NCBI GenBank assembly: GCA_035400625.1
Contig: DAOMZT010000003.1
Coordinates: 30,001 to 62,000, forward strand
Length of the DNA stretch: 32,000 nt
Source: an archaeon
GTDB taxonomy: Archaea > Iainarchaeota > Iainarchaeia > Iainarchaeales > CSSED10-239
Direction of reading: 5' to 3'
The position numbers and the translations under genes were made by a program. The notes beneath the pieces are model-generated. The model saw only the letters and a list, made by a program, of their open reading frames with translations. It did not search any database and was not told the DNA's origin. Below, piece by piece: positions 14,105-20,240 of this stretch. The first letter of the stretch is position 1, and every line of letters starts with the position of its first letter.

Positions 14105-14198
14105 AAAAATCAAAAGAGAAGTTATTTCTCTTTTGTTATTTTTAATTCTATTTATAAAAATAACTGTTCATAAAATATATATTAATATACCGTTTTTT

Positions 14199-14271
14199 AG
14201 CCCGATGGTGTAGTGGCCAAGCATGCAAGGCTTTGAACCTTGCGACAGGAGTTCGAATCTCTTTCGGGCTA
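14199..14271 (+). tRNA. tRNA-Gln (anticodon UUG)
   Basis: Manual cloverleaf: acceptor AGCCCGA/TCGGGCT, D-arm GTGT-AGTGGCCAA-GCAT, anticodon arm CAAGG-CTTTGAA-CCTTG, T-arm AGGAG-TTCGAAT-CTCTT, discriminator A. No CCA encoded. Confidence 0.85.
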
Positions 14272-14276
14272 AACAT

Positions 14277-14351
14277 GGGAGTGTAGCTTAGCCTGGTTAG
14301 AGCACCCGACTGATAATCGGGAGGTCGCAGGTTCGAATCCTGCCTCTCCCA
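14277..14351 (+). tRNA. tRNA-Ile (anticodon GAU)
   Basis: Acceptor GGGAGTG/CTCTCCC (U6:U67 mismatch), D-arm GCTT-AGCCTGGTTA-GAGC, anticodon arm CCCGA-CTGATAA-TCGGG, T-arm GCAGG-TTCGAAT-CCTGC. Lies 5 nt after tRNA-Gln. Confidence 0.85.
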
Positions 14352-14378
14352 TATCCTCTTTAAAAGAATCTGAATATT

Positions 14379-15248: not shown

Positions 15249-15734
15249 TTACTTTGTTTTCTCATTAACAAAAGAAATGTTTGGTGTAATAATTTGTTTT
15301 TCTTTATCAAATCTTGCTGTGCCAATTATGTGATTTCCATAAACACAAGCAACAAAGCCAGAAGATAGCAGATTCTTGTTTTTTATGTCTTTAGTTGCAA
15401 TTTCTTTTCCTGAAAAGTAAGTGTTTGTTTGGTTTCTTGTCAACTCTACAAAGTTTTGTTTTATTTGTTTTTTTGCAAAGCTTGAAAACCCAAGTGAGGA
15501 GGGTTTATAATCTTTGTAATTAGAGAAAATCTCTATCCCGAAAGAAATAGTAAAATTCTGTCTAATTTGATTTTCTATAATCTTTTGTGTTTCTCTTGTT
15601 TTATAAATAATTGAAACAGATTTTCCTGAAATAACAAAAAGATAATCTGCAAAAAAAGAACTATCAATGCCAAAGCGAGACTCTAAATAGTTTATTAGTT
15701 TTTTTCTTGTTTTTTCATCTAATTTTTTTGCCAT
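15249..15734 (-). CDS. hypothetical protein, possibly the stand-alone RsmF-type C-terminal PUA-like RNA-binding module
   Basis: Starts 2 nt after the stop of the upstream m5C methyltransferase gene. The C-terminal GFVACVYGNHIIGTARFDKEKQIITPN resembles the PUA-like tail fused to RsmF/NSUN enzymes. Assignment is by memory of that family only. Confidence 0.4.
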   Translation of the reverse strand: MAKKLDEKTRKKLINYLESRFGIDSSFFADYLFVISGKSVSIIYKTRETQKIIENQIRQNFTISFGIEIFSNYKDYKPSSLGFSSFAKKQIKQNFVELTRNQTNTYFSGKEIATKDIKNKNLLSSGFVACVYGNHIIGTARFDKEKQIITPNISFVNEKTK

Positions 15735-15736
15735 AA

Positions 15737-16684
15737 TTAATCCTTTCTAATCTTACAAATAAAAAAGCCCTCAATTCCACTTTTGTGTGGCCAAATCCTT
15801 ATTGCTTTTTTTAGCTCATTATCAAAGTTTTTATGCTTGTATTTTGTTAACCCCTCATCATAATTAAGCCCTGTAATTCTTGTCTCTTGAACTTTTGCAT
15901 TTTTATTTTTTTTAAGAAGAAAATCAATTACTTCTTCGTTTTCTTCAGGAGACAATGTACAAGTAGAATATACCAGCACGCCATTTGGCTTAAGCAAAGA
16001 AAAGGCATTAGCTATTAGCTTCTTTTGTAAATTAGATTTTGAGTTTACTTCTTTGTAAGACCAAGTTTTTAAGGAATCTGGTTTTTTCCTTATCATTCCT
16101 TCACAAGAGCATGGCGCATCTAGAAGTATTTTATCAAATTTAAAATTAAAATTAATTTTTGTAGCATCTCTACAAGTAATTATTGTGTTTCTTACACCTA
16201 GTCTTTTTAATGTGAATTTTAAGGTCTTAATTCTGGTTTTATCCACGTCGTTAGCAATAATTAATCCTTTGTTTTTCATTATTTGTGCTAAGATGCCTGT
16301 CTTGTTTCCGGGAGCAGCAGTCATATCTAAAACTATGTCTGTCTCTTTTGGATCAAGAACAAAAGCAGGGAGCATAGAAGATATCTCTTGCATTTGGAAT
16401 AAGCCGATGTTTTGTTCAATGGTGTTACCAAGACCAGAAACAAGAGACCTAATAAAATAGGCATTATCTATATATTTTACTTTTTCTAAATTAAGCCCTT
16501 GTTCTTTAAGAAAAGAAGCATCTTTGGCTTTAAGAGTATTAATGATTAAAGATTTTGTAAGTCTGGTTTTACAGGAATCCAAGAAAATAAGCACTTCTTG
16601 GTCTCCAAGTATCCATTTGTATTTTTCTGTAAATTCTTTAGGTAAATACACTTCCCCCATAGATATGTTAGTTAAGAAATACAT
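15737..16684 (-). CDS. NOL1/NOP2/Sun family RNA (cytosine-C5) methyltransferase
   Basis: SAM motif DMTAAPGNKT, catalytic DAPCSCEG (motif IV) and YSTCTLSPEENE (motif VI). Confidence 0.9.
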   Translation of the reverse strand: MYFLTNISMGEVYLPKEFTEKYKWILGDQEVLIFLDSCKTRLTKSLIINTLKAKDASFLKEQGLNLEKVKYIDNAYFIRSLVSGLGNTIEQNIGLFQMQEISSMLPAFVLDPKETDIVLDMTAAPGNKTGILAQIMKNKGLIIANDVDKTRIKTLKFTLKRLGVRNTIITCRDATKINFNFKFDKILLDAPCSCEGMIRKKPDSLKTWSYKEVNSKSNLQKKLIANAFSLLKPNGVLVYSTCTLSPEENEEVIDFLLKKNKNAKVQETRITGLNYDEGLTKYKHKNFDNELKKAIRIWPHKSGIEGFFICKIRKD

Positions 16685-16699
16685 TTAAAACAAGGCATT

Positions 16700-16728
16700 T
16701 TTTGGCCAACCAATAAGATATATAAATC
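16700..16728 (+). promoter_or_regulatory. TTGGCCAACCAAT box followed by a GATATATAAATC TATA-like element (box copy D)
   Basis: 16702-16714 matches the cassette A box TTGGACAACCAAT at 12 of 13 positions. It is followed 2 nt later by GATATATA and lies about 68-77 nt upstream of the acidic mini-protein ATGs. Confidence 0.4.
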
Positions 16729-16769
16729 TAATGTATCCATAATTTTTATATAAAAACTTTTTTTAAAAA

Positions 16770-16961
16770 ATGATGAATATGTTAGTGTATATGGTAGCAA
16801 AAAATGAGGAACAAGACTATAACCTTGATGACTTTGATTACGATGGCGACGAATGCATAATGGAAGAAAAAGAAGATATCGATACAGAATACACTCCAGA
16901 TGACTTTGATGACGAAGATGAAGAAGAGTACGATAGTGATCAAGACTATAGTGATGACTAA
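16770..16961 (+). CDS. hyper-acidic mini-protein 1 (63 aa from the first ATG; ATG 16779 or 16791 also possible)
   Basis: About 29 D/E, 2 K and no R. D/E runs are punctuated by Y/F (DDFDYD, DDFDDEDEEEYDSDQDYSDD). TATA-like TTTTTATATAAAA at 16744-16756 suggests a short or absent leader. Confidence 0.55.
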   Translation: MMNMLVYMVAKNEEQDYNLDDFDYDGDECIMEEKEDIDTEYTPDDFDDEDEEEYDSDQDYSDD

Positions 16962-17000
16962 AACAATTTTTTTAAAAAAACACAAAAGGTGGAATAAAAA

Positions 17001-17159
17001 ATGTATGTAATAACCAATGACTTAGAAGGTCAAGTCTTAAAGATAGATGACTACGATGAAGAAAACTATGAAGACTTTGATGAAGACGAAGACTATGAAG
17101 AAAGCGAAGAAGACGAAGACCTTGAAGAAGATTATGATGATTTTGAAGATGAAGAATAG
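17001..17159 (+). CDS. hyper-acidic mini-protein 2 (52 aa; below the ORF-track length cutoff)
   Basis: ATG 8 nt after an AAGGTGG SD (16986-16992). MYVITNDLEGQVLKIDDYDEENYEDFDEDEDYEESEEDEDLEEDYDDFEDEE, stop TAG at 17157-17159. About 30 of 52 residues are D/E. Same architecture as mini-protein 1. Confidence 0.55.
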   Translation: MYVITNDLEGQVLKIDDYDEENYEDFDEDEDYEESEEDEDLEEDYDDFEDEE

Positions 17160-17291
17160 ATAGGCTATTCTCTTAATTTCTATTTCTATATTTACTTTTT
17201 TTATGTTAAAAAATACATATTTAAAGGCTTCTATACCTATATATATTATATATTAAATACAATTTTTATAACAAAAAAGAGGGGTTTAAAA

Positions 17292-17699
17292 ATGAGCGAA
17301 AATGATTTAGAAAACCAAGAAATAAAATCTGTTGAAGAAGAAATTAAAGATGCTGTTGAAGATGAAGGAGTAGAACTTGATGATGAAAAATTACCTTTTC
17401 CAAATGCTACTGTTGTTAGATTAATGAGAAAGAATTTAGATAAGCACAAGCAAATAAAAGGGATAGTAAAAAAAGAAATGAATCTTTTTCTTGGCAGAAT
17501 TGTAGAAACTGTTTGTAAGAAAATGAATAGCTACGAATATACTTCTGTGGATTATGGCATGTTTAAGCAAGCAATAGAAACTTTTGAAAATATTCAATCT
17601 ATTGAACTTGAAAAAATTAGAATTATTAAAAACTTAGAAAAGATAAAAGCAGAATGTGATATTTTGATAGATGATGTAGAACGAAAATTCCATCAATAA
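17292..17699 (+). CDS. histone-fold protein (CBF/NF-Y/archaeal histone superfamily) with acidic N-tail and helical C-terminal extension
   Basis: AGAGGGG SD. The core LPFPNATVVRLMRKNL...GRIVETVCKKMNSYEYTSVDYGMFKQAIE aligns by eye to archaeal histone/NF-YB (LPIAP..RI.K...RKT...DI..A). About 33 aa of acidic N-terminal extension and about 35 aa of heptad-like C-terminal extension. Confidence 0.65.
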   Translation: MSENDLENQEIKSVEEEIKDAVEDEGVELDDEKLPFPNATVVRLMRKNLDKHKQIKGIVKKEMNLFLGRIVETVCKKMNSYEYTSVDYGMFKQAIETFENIQSIELEKIRIIKNLEKIKAECDILIDDVERKFHQ

Positions 17700-17718: not shown

Positions 17719-19347
17719 ATGGGTAATGAAAGTCAAAATACTGTGTTTTTACCTGAAGGCTCTAAAAGAGAAAGAGGTAAAGACGCTCAAAGAATGAACA
17801 TAATGGTTGCTAAAGCTGTAAGTAATGCTGTCAAATCAACACTTGGCCCTAGAGGAATGGACAAGATGCTAGTTGATGAGTTGGGGAATGTCACAATCAG
17901 CAATGACGGTGCAACAATTCTTAAAGAAATGGCAATAGAACACCCAATAGGAAAGATGCTAGTAGAACTTGCAAAAAACCAAGATGATGAAGTAGGGGAC
18001 GGAACAACAAGTGCTGTTGTTATTGCAGGTGGCCTTGTAGCAAAAGCTGAGAACCTTTTAGATGAAAATGTACATCCATCAATAATAATTAAAGGCTATA
18101 AGATGGCTTCAGAAAAAGCAGTTGAGTATTTTAATGAAATTTCAGAGAAGGTTGCAATCAATGATAAGCAAGAACTTCTAGATATTGCAAAAACCTCAAT
18201 GACTGGTAAGGCATCAGAATATAGCTCAAATCTTGGTAACATTGTTCTTGAAGCAACTCTAAAGATTTCAAAATCAAATAAAGAAATAGACAGAGACCAA
18301 ATCAAGATTGAACAAAAGATTGGGGGTAGCCTTTCTGATACAAAGTTAATAGACGGTATTGTTCTTGATAAAGAGATTGTTCACTCAGAGATGCCAAGAA
18401 GCGTAAAGAATGCAAAAATCTTATTATTAAGTTCTGCTCTTGAAGTAAAAGAGCCAGAGACAGAAGCAAAGATACAGATAACTTCTCCTGATCAGCTACA
18501 GGCATTTATTGATGAAGAAGAACATTATCTTAAAGCAATGGTTGATAGAATAGAAGCAACTGGTGCTAATGTTGTTCTTTGTCAGAAAGGGATAGATGAT
18601 CTTGCTCAGCATTATCTTGCGAAAGCAGGAATAACTGCTATTAGAAGAGTAAGACAAACAGATATTGAAAGAATTGCAAAAGCCACAGGCGGAAAGATTG
18701 TCTCAAGAATAAAAGATGTTACAACTAAAGACCTTGGAACAGCAGAACATGTGTATGATAAAAAAATAGCAGGCGACTACATGTTGTTTATTGAAAAATG
18801 TCCAAACCCAGGGTATGTTACAATATTACTTAGAGGAACATCTGAGCAAGTTTTAGCAGAAACTGAGAGAACATTAACAGATGCTATAGGTGCTGTAATA
18901 TCTACAATCAAGACTGGCAAGTTTGTTGCAGCAGGTGGTGCTTCAGAAATAGAAGTTGCTTTAAGATTGAAAAACTTTGCAAAGACTGTAGGTGGAAGAG
19001 AGCAATTAGCAATAGAGGCATTTGCTGATGTTCTTGAAATCATTCCAAAGACCTTGGCAGAAAGTGCTGGTTTAGATGCAATTGATACAATTGTCTTTTT
19101 AAGAAGCAAGCATCAAGACCCTGCAAACAAAGCACTAGGAATAGACGTTGTTAATGGCATTGTAGCAGACATGAAGAAGAAAAAGGTAATTGAGCCAATA
19201 GCTGTTAAGACACAAGCAGTGACATCTGCTACAGAGGTTGCAGAGATGATTCTAAGGATTGACGATATCATTGCTGGTCAATCTAATAGACCAAGGACTC
19301 CACCAATGGGAATGGGCGGAATGCCTGGCGGAATGGGCGAAATGTAA
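17719..19347 (+). CDS. ths: thermosome subunit (group II chaperonin)
   Basis: [37 protein letters not shown] and VAAGGASE motifs, plus a GM-rich C-terminal tail ([13 protein letters not shown]). Confidence 0.95.
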
Positions 19348-19678: not shown

Positions 19679-20026
19679 ATGATATTAGAAAAAATAAGAG
19701 ACATAAAGCACTATCAAAAGAAAGTGGATATTGTAGCAAAGGTTATAGACAAGACTAATGTCCGAGAAGTTGTTTCCAAACTTGATGAAACACGACACAA
19801 GGTTTGTGAAGTCCTAATAGGCGACGAAACAGGAACAATCTATCTTACAATGTGGGATGATGCTATTTCTAAAATAGAGATTGGTAAAACCTATATCTTT
19901 AGAAACCTATTTTCTTCTGAGTTTCAAAAATCAATGAGGCTAAACATTGGAAGATTTGGAGAGTTCGAGGAAACGGACAAACAAATAGATGTGAACTTGG
20001 ATAATTTCAGATCTCAAGTGCATTAA
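19679..20026 (+). CDS. OB-fold single-stranded DNA-binding protein (SSB/RPA-like, single OB)
   Basis: VDIVAKVIDKTNVREV...KVCEVLIGDETGTIYLTMWDD...GKTYIFRN is the typical pattern of archaeal/hSSB1-type OB folds. Confidence 0.65.
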   Translation: MILEKIRDIKHYQKKVDIVAKVIDKTNVREVVSKLDETRHKVCEVLIGDETGTIYLTMWDDAISKIEIGKTYIFRNLFSSEFQKSMRLNIGRFGEFEETDKQIDVNLDNFRSQVH

Positions 20027-20100: not shown

Positions 20101-20175
20101 GGGAGTATAGCTCAGCCTGGTCAGAGCAGTGGTCTTATACACCAAAGGTCGCAGGTTCGAATCCTGCTTCTCCCA
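20101..20175 (+). tRNA. tRNA-Ile (anticodon UAU)
   Basis: Acceptor GGGAGTA/TTCTCCC (U6:U67 mismatch), D-arm GCTC-AGCCTGGTCA-GAGC, anticodon arm GTGGT-CTTATAC-ACCAA (27:43 mismatch), T-arm GCAGG-TTCGAAT-CCTGC. The body is nearly identical to tRNA-Ile(GAU) at 14277. Confidence 0.75.
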
Positions 20176-20240
20176 CCTTTGGAAAAACCTTGTTTTTTTA
20201 ATTAAATATCTTTAAAAACATATTTATAATCTATTTTTCT

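What the first reader, a model, noticed from the sequence alone, without database searches (positions are those of the whole stretch)
16770..17699. Two tandem hyper-acidic, aromatic-punctuated mini-proteins directly upstream of an extended histone-fold protein
Seen: ORF 16770-16961 (63 aa, about 29 D/E, 2 K, no R) and an ORF not in the track at 17001-17159 (52 aa, about 30 D/E, 1 K, own AAGGTGG SD). Both have a short hydrophobic N-terminal stub (MLVYMVAKN / MYVITND), then D/E runs interrupted by Y/F (DDFDYD, DDYDEENYEDFDEDEDYEE, EDYDDFEDEE). About 130 nt downstream on the same strand is a 135-aa protein. Its core reads as a histone fold, flanked by an acidic N-tail and a heptad-like C-terminal helix, so it is about twice the size of canonical archaeal histones. 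Established: canonical archaeal histones are about 65-70 aa and tail-less, and poly-acidic proteins act elsewhere as DNA mimics or histone chaperones. Inference: the trio could be a chromatin module, with acidic chaperone or DNA-mimic partners for a variant histone. I know of no described equivalent.
Basis: partly seen in the sequence, partly recalled or inferred. Interest (0 to 1): 0.7.

Follow-up and report, generated by a model that had tools for sequence, protein, structure and literature searches.

The report
Acidic mini-proteins beside a coiled-coil histone
Two tiny, extremely acidic proteins are real, conserved genes that always sit just upstream of a DNA-bridging "coiled-coil" histone in one group of DPANN archaea; the histone type is already described, but the acidic partners are not, and they may regulate the histone.

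Summary
ORFs 16770/16791-16961 and 17001-17159 encode 46-58% Asp/Glu proteins. They are the two most acidic ORFs in the window by a wide margin.

The 135-aa protein (17292-17699) is a histone-fold protein, but it is not an undescribed type. It belongs to the coiled-coil (CC, "HMfC-type") histones of Schwab et al. 2024. That family is reported in Iainarchaeota, typically has acidic tails and a long C-terminal helix, and HMfC bridges DNA in vitro.

Both acidic ORFs are genuine genes:
- They keep their frame through indels in relatives.
- Substitutions fall about 3-5:1 on third codon positions, while flanking spacers show no phase bias.
- Conserved aromatic anchors are DYxLxDFDYD in acid1 and MYVINN…EDFEDFD in acid2.

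acid1 lay upstream of the CC histone, on the same strand, in every context examined: 20 of 35 genome loci plus 11 metagenome loci, all from one Iainarchaeota clade. acid2 occurs only in the closest relatives. Neither matches Pfam, NCBIfam, PHROGs or PADLOC. AlphaFold2 predicts acid1 to be disordered.

My best reading is inference only. The two proteins are trans-encoded polyanionic peptides with aromatic anchors that bind the histone's basic DNA-binding face, like the cis acidic-aromatic C-tails of other CC histones. No binding was tested.

The parts
16743..16755 (+). A/T-rich TATA-like box (TTTTTATATAAAA) upstream of acid1; putative archaeal promoter
   Evidence: Read from the sequence. A similar TTTATATAA block sits at the same place in L001, L002, L004 and L005. 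Function is inferred, not tested.
16791..16961 (+). acid1: 56-aa hyper-acidic protein (52% D/E, net charge -27, 7 aromatics). The longest ORF starts at 16770. Conserved motif DYxLx[DE][FY]DYD, a second acidic-aromatic patch, and a C-terminal DSDxDY-like end.
   Evidence: ORF. Composition. In-frame orthologues in 20 of 35 genome loci plus L036-L046. Alignments A2 and A6 show Y10, D16, Y17, D18 and D50 invariant. Third-codon-position excess. AF2 gives pLDDT 63, pTM 0.17 and no secondary structure. NCBI annotates the 56-aa form as a hypothetical protein.
16986..16992 (+). Shine-Dalgarno-like AAGGTGG for acid2
   Evidence: Sequence. GGTGA/GGTGG is conserved at the same distance in L001-L009.
17001..17159 (+). 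acid2: 52-aa hyper-acidic protein (58% D/E, net charge -29). N-terminus MYVINNDxxGQxYK, then EDFEDFDEED and EDEDFE-type repeats.
   Evidence: ORF. Composition. Orthologues only in close relatives L001-L009 and four database clusters. Length varies by whole codons. Third-position excess.
17205..17284 (+). Conserved intergenic region upstream of the histone gene: ATTTAAAGGCTTCTATAC…TATATATATTATA block (putative promoter or regulator site) and GAGGGG Shine-Dalgarno at 17279-17284
   Evidence: About 90% identical to L001 with no codon-phase bias. The block is conserved in L001-L007. Function is inferred.
17292..17390 (+). Acidic N-terminal tail of the CC histone (residues 1-33; 15 D/E, 3 K; low-confidence region)
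   Evidence: The tail is variable in sequence but acidic in all 20 acid1-bearing loci, with mean net charge -12.4.
17391..17591 (+). Histone fold of the CC histone (residues 34-100): LPFP cap, α1 38-48, L1, α2 57-79, L2, α3 88-99. Basic face residues R43, R46, K56, K60.
   Evidence: AF2 model with pLDDT 88-94 in this region. Foldseek top hits are all histone-fold proteins. The family profile hits H2B at E=9e-6 and NF-YB at 1e-4. hhalign against HMfA/B gives E=1.7e-4. Invariant residues.
17592..17699 (+). Long C-terminal helix (residues 101-134) of the CC histone, then the stop codon; there is no C-terminal tail
   Evidence: AF2 helix 101-134 with pLDDT 94-97. Conserved across the family. All 84 close homologues end 1 residue (one cluster: 6) after the helix.
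17719..19347 (+). Thermosome (group II chaperonin) gene, 19 nt downstream of the histone with its own GGTGA Shine-Dalgarno; part of the conserved block
   Evidence: Pfam Cpn60_TCP1 at E=5.6e-175. Adjacent to the histone in L001-L019 and L035; 0.8-3.9 kb downstream in 7 of the 15 more distant loci.
19679..20026 (+). 115-aa single-OB-fold SSB-like protein; last member of the conserved block
   Evidence: Pfam Ssb-like_OB at E=2.4e-12. NCBIfam SSB models align at positions 5-110 of 144-151, so the C-terminal tail region is absent. Synteny.

Best explanation
The locus encodes a coiled-coil (HMfC-type) histone. It has a histone fold with a basic α1/L1 face, an acidic N-tail, and a long C-terminal helix. 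In this family that helix is predicted to join two dimers into a DNA-bridging tetramer.

Directly upstream, from their own expression signals, are one or two genuine protein genes (acid1, acid2). They encode roughly 55-aa intrinsically disordered polyanions in which a few aromatic residues are the best-conserved positions.

Most likely mechanism (inferred):
1. These peptides bind the histone's basic DNA-binding face electrostatically.
2. The aromatic residues act as anchors.
3. The peptides thereby compete with DNA. They could keep free histone soluble and off nucleic acids, or tune its bridging activity.

In this reading they are trans-encoded counterparts of the acidic, Phe-containing C-terminal tails that many other CC histones carry in cis and that this clade lacks.

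Shown: gene reality, the histone family, and the synteny. Inferred: binding and its consequence.
For: Histone identity:
- AF2 model has α1-L1-α2-L2-α3 plus helix 101-134.
- Foldseek top 50 hits are all histone-fold proteins.
- The 60-sequence family profile hits H2B, NF-YB and archaeal histone in the PDB.
- hhalign against HMfA/B gives E=1.7e-4 over 61 columns.
- Recurrent weak CBFD_NFYB_HMF hits in 7 of 10 diverse members.

CC-family membership:
- The paper's definition and its listing of Iainarchaeota.
- The HMfC cloning primer encodes MEEKLPFA, which is the family's EKLPF[PA] motif.
- 52-55% identity to Methanobrevibacter homologues.
- R43/R46/K56/K60 have the same 3-10-4 spacing as the paper's R32/K35/R45/K49.

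acid1 and acid2 are real genes:
- In-frame conservation with whole-codon indels.
- Mismatches by codon phase are 110/117/368 and 163/185/484.
- In a frame-blind nucleotide alignment the counts are 5/5/23 and 9/4/19, against no bias in the spacers.

Linkage:
- acid1 is found only upstream of the CC histone in every context seen. This holds when the genes upstream of it differ (RsmB, a tRNA, or GatB-HIT) and when a gene is inserted between them.
- The family is tiny, at 22 clusters in 5.8 billion.

Disorder: AF2 pTM 0.17 with no secondary structure.

Charge complementarity: histone residues 34-66 have net charge +6, and residues 34-135 have pI 9.1.

Cis-tail analogy:
- 41 of 78 distant CC histones have C-tails of at least 8 aa. 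Of these, 30 are net acidic and 24 have an aromatic residue next to an acid.
- Recurrent tail motifs are VENDSFADFS, EEDDFIPLTGR and DEDDFKVG.
- All 84 close homologues lack a C-tail.
Against:
- Synteny comes from a single clade, so it may be inherited gene order rather than functional coupling.
- The histone already carries a strongly acidic N-tail in exactly the genomes that have acid1 (mean -12.4 against -1.9 elsewhere). There is no compensatory pattern and no obvious need for more polyanion.
- 37 of 78 distant CC histones have neither a C-tail nor a neighbouring acidic ORF.
- No CC histone representative has the acid1 motif fused to it.
- 'DDF'-type motifs are expected by chance in any D/E-rich sequence that contains Phe.
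- acid1, acid2 and the histone appear to have separate promoters, and T-runs follow each acidic gene.
- A thermosome and an SSB-like protein share the conserved block and are alternative partners.
Confidence: 0.4

Rival explanations
1. The acidic mini-proteins are real but have nothing specific to do with the histone. They could be general polyanionic, disordered 'shield' or holdase-type proteins (Hero-protein-like), cation or polyamine buffers, or accessory factors of the thermosome encoded two genes downstream. Their position next to the histone would then be inherited gene order within one small clade.
For: The conserved block also contains the thermosome, which starts 19 nt after the histone gene. 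All acid1-bearing genomes belong to one clade, with histone identity of at least 62%. There is no compensatory relation with the histone tails. The acidic genes seem to have their own promoters and oligo-T stops.
Against: The acid1-histone neighbourhood survives rearrangements on its upstream side and insertions between the two genes. The most conserved positions are specific aromatic residues, which is typical of a defined binding motif rather than bulk charge. Similar acidic-aromatic motifs occur in cis on other CC histones.
Confidence: 0.25
2. The acidic peptides target the tail-less SSB-like OB-fold protein of the same block, or other ssDNA/RNA-binding proteins. They would act as a single-stranded-DNA mimic or as a trans-supplied 'acidic tail'. 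The parallels are DSS1/Sem1 acting on RPA and the acidic C-terminal tip of bacterial and crenarchaeal SSBs.
For: A 115-aa OB protein is conserved in the block. It aligns only to positions 5-110 of 144-151-aa SSB models, so it lacks their tail. acid1's W/F/Y-in-acid pattern resembles DSS1; this resemblance is recalled from memory and was not tested.
Against: The OB gene is separated from the acidic genes by the histone, the 1.6-kb thermosome gene and a 330-nt spacer. acid1 is always nearer to the histone. There is no Pfam DSS1_SEM1 hit even at E≤1. No interaction was tested.
Confidence: 0.12
3. The acidic ORFs are not translated. They would be GA-rich intergenic DNA or RNA, for example regulatory sequence for the histone/thermosome genes, that happens to be open in one frame.
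For: The ORFs are very short and low in complexity. The antisense and +1 frames are also open. There are no expression data.
Against: There is a strong third-position substitution bias in the D/E frame only, and none in the flanking spacers. Indels are whole codons. A conserved start codon and Shine-Dalgarno are present. Specific aromatic positions are invariant across about 35-80% protein identity. Independent gene callers predict them.
Confidence: 0.03
4. The 135-aa protein is not a histone but a saposin-like or other helical-bundle protein. Pfam DUF3456/canopy scores just above its cut-off, and there is a weak NK-lysin hit.
For: Pfam DUF3456 at E=2e-4, 22.1 bits against a cut-off of 21.1. 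NK-lysin at E=0.84.
Against: The family has only two conserved cysteines (C75, C122), not the six disulfide cysteines of saposin-like proteins. The AF2 model and Foldseek return only histone-fold proteins. The family profile hits H2B, NF-YB and archaeal histones at E down to 9e-6. It is homologous to the experimentally studied HMfC family.
Confidence: 0.03

Closest known systems
Coiled-coil (CC) histones, e.g. HMfC of Methanothermus fervidus (Schwab et al. 2024, Nat Commun, PMC11390915)
   Same: The 135-aa protein shares the histone fold plus long C-terminal helix, the EKLPF[PA] cap, basic α1-face residues with identical spacing, a highly acidic tail, and occurrence in Iainarchaeota. It is 52-55% identical to Methanobrevibacter members.
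   Different: This clade has an acidic N-tail only and no C-tail. It sits directly upstream of the thermosome gene. It is accompanied by separate hyper-acidic genes that the paper does not mention. Tetramerisation and bridging were not tested for this protein.
Acidic intrinsically disordered histone-chaperone regions with aromatic anchors (Swc5 DEF/Y motif, Chz1, Spt16 C-terminal domain, APLF acidic domain) and prothymosin-α with linker histone H1 (from general knowledge)
   Same: Short, disordered, D/E-rich sequences in which a few F/Y/W residues are the conserved positions. They are proposed to shield a histone's DNA-binding surface. The CC-histone profile's best PDB sequence match is H2B, which is the target of DEF/Y-type motifs.
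   Different: There is no sequence homology. The proteins here are stand-alone, about 55 aa, and archaeal. Binding is not shown. The papers searched describe no archaeal histone chaperone.
Bacterial and phage DNA-mimic proteins that bind nucleoid proteins (Neisseria DMP12 and DMP19 with HU, PMC3643605 and PMC5722371; HI1450 with HU and T4 Arn with H-NS, from memory)
   Same: Small acidic proteins that occupy the DNA-binding site of an abundant chromosome-architecture protein.
   Different: Those proteins are folded and present a fixed array of charges. acid1 is predicted to be disordered. There is no homology.
DSS1/Sem1 (Pfam PF05160; from general knowledge)
   Same: A roughly 70-aa hyper-acidic disordered protein with conserved Trp/Phe in acidic runs. 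It acts as a DNA mimic towards RPA and as a 'glue' in complexes. An SSB/RPA-like OB protein lies in the same conserved block here.
   Different: There is no Pfam hit at E≤1. The motif order differs. DSS1/Sem1 is eukaryotic.
Cis acidic tails of CC histones, proposed by Schwab et al. to auto-inhibit by occluding the α1 face
   Same: Same charge character. Many C-tails carry [DE][DE]D·F-type motifs like acid1 and acid2.
   Different: acid1 and acid2 are encoded as separate genes upstream of the histone rather than as a C-terminal extension. No fused intermediate was found.

Membership tests
Coiled-coil (CC / HMfC-type) histones | Histone fold (α1-L1-α2-L2-α3) | tested here: met
   AF2 gives helices 38-48, 57-79 and 88-99 with pLDDT around 90. 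Foldseek PDB top hits are NF-YB/C, H2A/H2B and Asgard HHoB at probability about 1.0. The profile hits H2B at 9e-6 and NF-YB at 1e-4. hhalign against HMfA/B gives E=1.7e-4.
Coiled-coil (CC / HMfC-type) histones | Long α-helix C-terminal to the histone fold | tested here: met
   AF2 helix 101-134 with pLDDT 94-97. It is conserved in 60 aligned family members.
Coiled-coil (CC / HMfC-type) histones | Sequence homology to named members (HMfC E3GZL0, Methanobacteriota members) | tested here: met
   tblastn gives 52-55% identity to Methanobrevibacter loci L028, L032 and L034. The HMfC primer encodes MEEKLPFA… and …FDLTSKL, which fits the family's N-cap and C-end.
Coiled-coil (CC / HMfC-type) histones | Conserved basic residues on the α1 face (R32, K35, R45, K49 of the published logo) | tested here: met
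   R43, R46, K56 and K60 have the identical 3-10-4 spacing. R46, K56 and K60 are invariant in A1. The mapping is by spacing, not by the authors' HMM.
Coiled-coil (CC / HMfC-type) histones | Highly negatively charged disordered tail(s) | tested here: met
   N-tail residues 1-33 have 15 D/E and 3 K, with pLDDT around 50.
Coiled-coil (CC / HMfC-type) histones | Tetramer through a C-terminal coiled coil; DNA bridging | not testable with these tools
   Only monomer prediction was available. Testing this needs AF-Multimer and a bridging assay.
Nucleosomal archaeal histones (HMfA/B type) | Tail-less protein of about 65-70 aa with an RxTxxxxD (RKTxxxxD) L2/α3 motif | tested here: not met
   The protein is 135 aa. 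The L2 region reads EYTSVDYGMF, with family consensus PY[ST]x[VI][DE]. There is no Arg, and the T-to-D spacing is 3 rather than 5. α2 is about 4 residues shorter.
Saposin-like / canopy (Pfam DUF3456) | Six conserved disulfide-forming cysteines; saposin helical bundle | tested here: not met
   Only C75 and C122 are conserved. Foldseek returns histone folds only. The Pfam score is 1 bit above the cut-off.
DSS1/Sem1 (for acid1/acid2) | Match to Pfam DSS1_SEM1 | tested here: not met
   No Pfam family matched at E≤1 for either protein.
EF-hand-like DxDxDG calcium loop (for acid1 DFDYDGDE) | Conserved Gly at position 6 and Glu at position 12 of the loop | tested here: not met
   Position 6 is G, E, K or Q, and position 12 is E or K across orthologues. 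The invariant residues are Y10, D16, Y17 and D18.
Histone-chaperone-type acidic/aromatic (DEF/Y-like) motifs (for acid1/acid2) | Acidic run with a conserved aromatic anchor | tested here: met
   Y10, F15 and Y17 are invariant or nearly so within D/E runs in acid1. F26 is invariant in acid2. This is a pattern only.
Histone-chaperone-type acidic/aromatic (DEF/Y-like) motifs (for acid1/acid2) | Direct binding to a histone-fold dimer that competes with DNA | not testable with these tools
   No multimer modelling or experiment was possible.
Folded DNA-mimic proteins (DMP12, Ocr, ArdA type) | Stable fold that displays a DNA-like charge array | tested here: not met
   AF2 of acid1 with a 20-sequence alignment gives pTM 0.17 and no secondary structure. 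There are no PADLOC or PHROGs hits.

The most novel reading that the evidence does not exclude
acid1 and acid2 would be the first dedicated archaeal histone-binding polyanions. They would be stand-alone, disordered 'histone chaperone / DNA-competitor' peptides that use aromatic anchors on a histone fold, supplied in trans where other CC histones carry an auto-inhibitory acidic-aromatic tail in cis. That would show that acidic, disordered control of histone-DNA binding, a hallmark of eukaryotic chromatin, also arose in DPANN archaea.
Probability: 0.3. Interest if true: 0.75.

Novelty: new variant of a known kind. Interest (0 to 1): 0.5.

Why it matters
Coiled-coil histones are a recently recognised class of DNA-bridging histone. 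The role of their acidic tails is an open question, and the papers searched describe no archaeal histone chaperone or histone-specific DNA mimic.

A conserved pair or trio made of a separately encoded acidic-aromatic peptide and a tail-poor CC histone would make the proposed tail auto-inhibition easy to test. The peptide can be added in trans to bridging or EMSA assays and mutated at three aromatic positions.

If the link proves spurious, the locus still adds two previously unclassified, lineage-restricted mini-protein families. It also corrects the 'novel histone' reading.

Tried and rejected
- Single-sequence and 30-sequence profile searches of the PDB found no histones. hhalign of the shallow alignment A1 against HMfA/B was not significant. 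Only the 60-sequence family profile A4 reached histones.
- The Pfam DUF3456/saposin lead was rejected on the cysteine pattern and the fold search.
- The EF-hand DxDxDG reading of DFDYDGDE was rejected because Gly and Glu12 are not conserved.
- Rosetta-stone test: none of about 124 CC-histone representatives carries an acid1-like [FYW][DE][FYW][DE] motif.
- Compensation test (fewer cis charges where acid1 is present) gave the opposite trend for N-tails.
- Read-through fusion idea: all three ORFs share a frame, and there is no stop between acid2's TAG and the histone ATG. The frames differ in L001, so this was rejected.
- Pfam, NCBIfam, PHROGs and PADLOC gave nothing for acid1 or acid2. Rfam found only tRNAs.
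- The bacterial-type promoter/terminator scan was uninformative for an archaeon.
- I considered a single-chain fusion of acid2 and the histone for AF2. I dropped it because the natural 'linker' is hydrophobic junk and the histone is an obligate oligomer.
Full report
**Context.** The window is about 30% G+C. It carries archaeal housekeeping genes: an RsmB/F-like methyltransferase, a thermosome, aminoacyl-tRNA synthetases and ribosomal protein S24e. The proteins of the finding match, at 100% identity, hypothetical proteins from 'archaeon' metagenome-assembled genomes. Their relatives are labelled Candidatus Iainarchaeum/'ainarchaeum' and Ca. Forterrea. The organism is therefore a DPANN archaeon of the Iainarchaeota.

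**Observation.**
- acid1, as the 63-aa ORF from 16770, has 29 D/E, 2 K and no R.
- acid2 (17001-17159, 52 aa) has 30 D/E and 1 K.
- Both have 7-8 aromatic residues.
- Of 119 ORFs of at least 40 aa in the window, they have the two highest D+E fractions (0.58 and 0.46). The third is the 135-aa protein at 0.22.
- AAGGTGG lies 8 nt before acid2's ATG.

One correction is needed. Orthologues and NCBI's own annotation start acid1 at the ATG at 16791 (MVAKNEE…, 56 aa). The 'hydrophobic stub' of acid1 is therefore probably untranslated.

**The 135-aa protein is a coiled-coil histone.**
- A single-sequence Pfam scan gives only a sub-threshold CBFD_NFYB_HMF hit (E=0.018). It also gives a borderline DUF3456 hit.
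- The database holds 90 close homologues, several of which JGI names 'histone H3/H4'.
- An exhaustive profile search finds only 125 representatives at 50% identity among 1.84 billion proteins. This is a small, compact family.
- AlphaFold2 with a 30-sequence alignment gives mean pLDDT 81.8. The N-tail is low-confidence. Helices fall at 38-48, 57-79 and 88-99 (a histone fold), followed by one long helix at 101-134.
- The top 50 Foldseek hits against the PDB are all histone-fold proteins: NF-YB/C, H2A/H2B and the Asgard HHoB histone. Probabilities are about 1.0 and E-values about 1e-2.
- A profile of 60 diverse family members hits H2B (E=9e-6), NF-YB (1e-4) and 'archaeal histone A' in the PDB sequence set.
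- That profile aligns with HMfA/HMfB over 61 columns at E=1.7e-4.
- Seven of ten diverse members give the same partial CBFD_NFYB_HMF match.

The architecture is exactly that of the 'coiled-coil (CC) histones' defined by Schwab et al. 2024 (PMC11390915). That paper describes:
- 'highly negatively charged tails' at the N- and/or C-terminus;
- occurrence in Iainarchaeota among other phyla;
- candidate DNA-binding residues R32, K35, R45 and K49;
- DNA bridging shown for HMfC of M. fervidus.

In the window protein, R43, R46, K56 and K60 have the same 3-10-4 spacing, and three of them are invariant. The HMfC cloning primers in the paper's supplement encode MEEKLPFA… This is the family's EKLPF[PA] cap. 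Methanobrevibacter homologues are 52-55% identical.

The protein is not a nucleosomal histone. The RxTxxxxD motif is absent and α2 is about four residues shorter. The saposin-like reading fails because only two cysteines are conserved.

**The acidic ORFs are real genes.** Scanning 35 genome loci that encode relatives of the histone gave the following.
- An in-frame acid1 orthologue lies on the same strand upstream in 20 of them. These 20 are all loci whose histone is at least 62% identical to the window's.
- An acid2 orthologue is present in the nine closest loci.
- Lengths differ by whole codons.
- acid1 keeps an invariant core, DYxLx[DE][FY]DYD (Y10, D16, Y17, D18; F15 in at least 90%). It also keeps a second acidic-aromatic patch and a DSDxDY-like end, across about 30-80% identity.
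- acid2 keeps MYVINNDxxGQxYK and EDFEDFDEED.
- Pairwise differences by codon position are 110/117/368 for acid1 and 163/185/484 for acid2.
- In a nucleotide alignment made without reference to frame, the phase counts against L001 are 5/5/23 for acid1 and 9/4/19 for acid2. The three intergenic segments show no phase bias.

This excludes frame-independent conservation. The open antisense and +1 frames are the expected by-product of GAN-rich codons.

Profile searches of 5.8 billion proteins find only 22 acid1 clusters and 4 acid2 clusters, all 48-77 aa. No Pfam, NCBIfam, PHROGs or PADLOC family matches. AlphaFold2 with a 20-sequence alignment predicts no secondary structure for acid1 (pLDDT 63, pTM 0.17). 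It is best described as an intrinsically disordered polyanion.

**Linkage.**
- Every acid1 or acid2 gene whose surroundings could be read lies upstream of a CC histone gene. This covers 20 genome loci and 11 metagenome loci, L036-L046.
- The neighbourhood upstream of acid1 changes: RsmB in some lineages, a tRNA gene in others, GatB-HIT in others.
- In some lineages a gene is inserted between acid1 and the histone. acid1 still stays with the histone.
- The wider conserved block is acid1-(acid2)-CC histone-thermosome-SSB-like OB protein.
- In the window the thermosome gene starts 19 nt after the histone's stop codon, with its own GGTGA.
- More distant Iainarchaeota and the Methanobrevibacter loci have the histone but no acidic ORF within 2.5 kb.

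**What the acidic proteins might do.**
- The histone-fold core is basic. Residues 34-66 have net charge +6, and residues 34-135 have pI 9.1.
- Schwab et al. proposed that the acidic tails of CC histones occlude the DNA-binding α1 face.
- I compared tails across the family.
  - All 84 close homologues end 1 residue (one cluster: 6) after the C-helix.
  - Of 78 more distant representatives with a complete C-helix, 41 have a C-tail of at least 8 residues. Of these, 30 are net acidic and 24 have an aromatic residue beside an acid.
  - Recurrent tail motifs are VENDSFADFS, EEDDFIPLTGR and DEDDFKVG.
- acid1 (DDFDYD, PDDFDDE) and acid2 (EDFEDFD, DDFEDEE) look like these cis tails. This suggests that this clade supplies a similar peptide in trans.

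That is the reading I favour. The peptides would be DNA-competitive ligands of the histone's basic face with aromatic anchors, acting as a solubility or assembly chaperone or as a regulator of bridging. They would be functionally analogous to eukaryotic acidic chaperone segments with aromatic anchors, to prothymosin-α, or to bacterial DNA mimics that bind HU (PMC3643605).

**Weaknesses of that reading.**
- No interaction was modelled or measured.
- The synteny is from one clade.
- The histone N-tail is most acidic precisely where acid1 is present (-12.4 against -1.9).
- 37 of 78 distant members have neither a tail nor a partner.
- No fused form exists.
- 'DDF' is an easy chance motif in such compositions.
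- The genes appear to be separately transcribed, with TATA-like boxes and oligo-T runs.

Alternatives are a histone-independent polyanion, possibly linked to the thermosome, or a partner of the tail-less SSB-like OB protein.

**Novelty.** In the literature library only three papers mention CC histones. None mentions neighbouring acidic genes. Searches for archaeal histone chaperones or DNA mimics returned nothing relevant. The histone is already known. The acidic mini-protein families and their fixed association with it are, as far as I can tell, undescribed. I rate the whole as a new variant of a known kind, with moderate interest. It would rise substantially if binding were shown.

Noticed in passing
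window 20101-20177: tRNA-Ile with anticodon UAU (ARAGORN and Rfam), in addition to tRNA-Ile(GAU) at 14276-14352. The latter sits 3 nt after tRNA-Gln(UUG) at 14198-14272. From memory, a UAU isoleucine tRNA is unusual for archaea, which mostly decode AUA with a modified CAU.
   Followed up: no
window 17001-17699: acid1, acid2 and the histone are all in the same reading frame. The 44 codons between acid2's TAG and the histone ATG contain no stop, so TAG read-through would fuse them. In L001 the two genes are in different frames, so this looks like chance.
   Followed up: partly
window 17205-17275: The intergenic stretch upstream of the histone gene is about as conserved as coding sequence (about 90% identical to L001) and shows no codon-phase bias. 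It contains a block, ATTTAAAGGCTTCTATAC…TATATATATTATA, shared by L001-L007. It is likely a promoter plus a regulator site.
   Followed up: partly
window 19679-20026: A 115-aa single-OB SSB-like protein is conserved downstream of the thermosome in the same block. It aligns only to positions 5-110 of 144-151-aa SSB models, so it lacks their C-terminal tail region.
   Followed up: partly
window 15249-15734 (-) and 15737-16684 (-): A 161-aa ORF with no Pfam hit lies immediately downstream of the RsmB/F-like methyltransferase. It has a weak NCBIfam match to the C-terminal part of RsmF. It may be a split C-terminal domain. The pair is syntenic in L001-L009, L013 and L019.
   Followed up: no
L032 3104-3451 (-) and 3971-4360 (+): In a Methanobrevibacter MAG, the CC histone (129 aa, with a C-tail …LKDAVENDSIADFSIQ) lies divergently next to a 115-aa nucleosomal-type histone that has a long acidic C-terminal extension.
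   Followed up: no
protein P0113 (276 aa): A natural tandem doublet: two complete CC-histone units in one polypeptide, preceded by a roughly 60-residue hyper-acidic N-tail. It is a possible CC-histone 'pseudodimer'.
   Followed up: no
L036 3257-4095; L040 1036-1641; L038/L039 3257-3862; L043/L044 2773-4029 (-): Lineage-specific insertions lie between acid1 and the CC histone. One is a roughly 200-aa gene of unknown function that appears broken into 40-93-aa pieces in some contigs. Another is a 418-aa gene on the opposite strand.
   Followed up: partly
window 16672-16739 (-): A short minus-strand ORF (MDTLDLYILLVGQKMPCFKCIS) overlaps the RsmB start. Its ATG (a 'CCAT' on the + strand at about 16736-16739) is conserved in L001, L004 and L005. 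It could be a uORF or part of the divergent promoter region.
   Followed up: no
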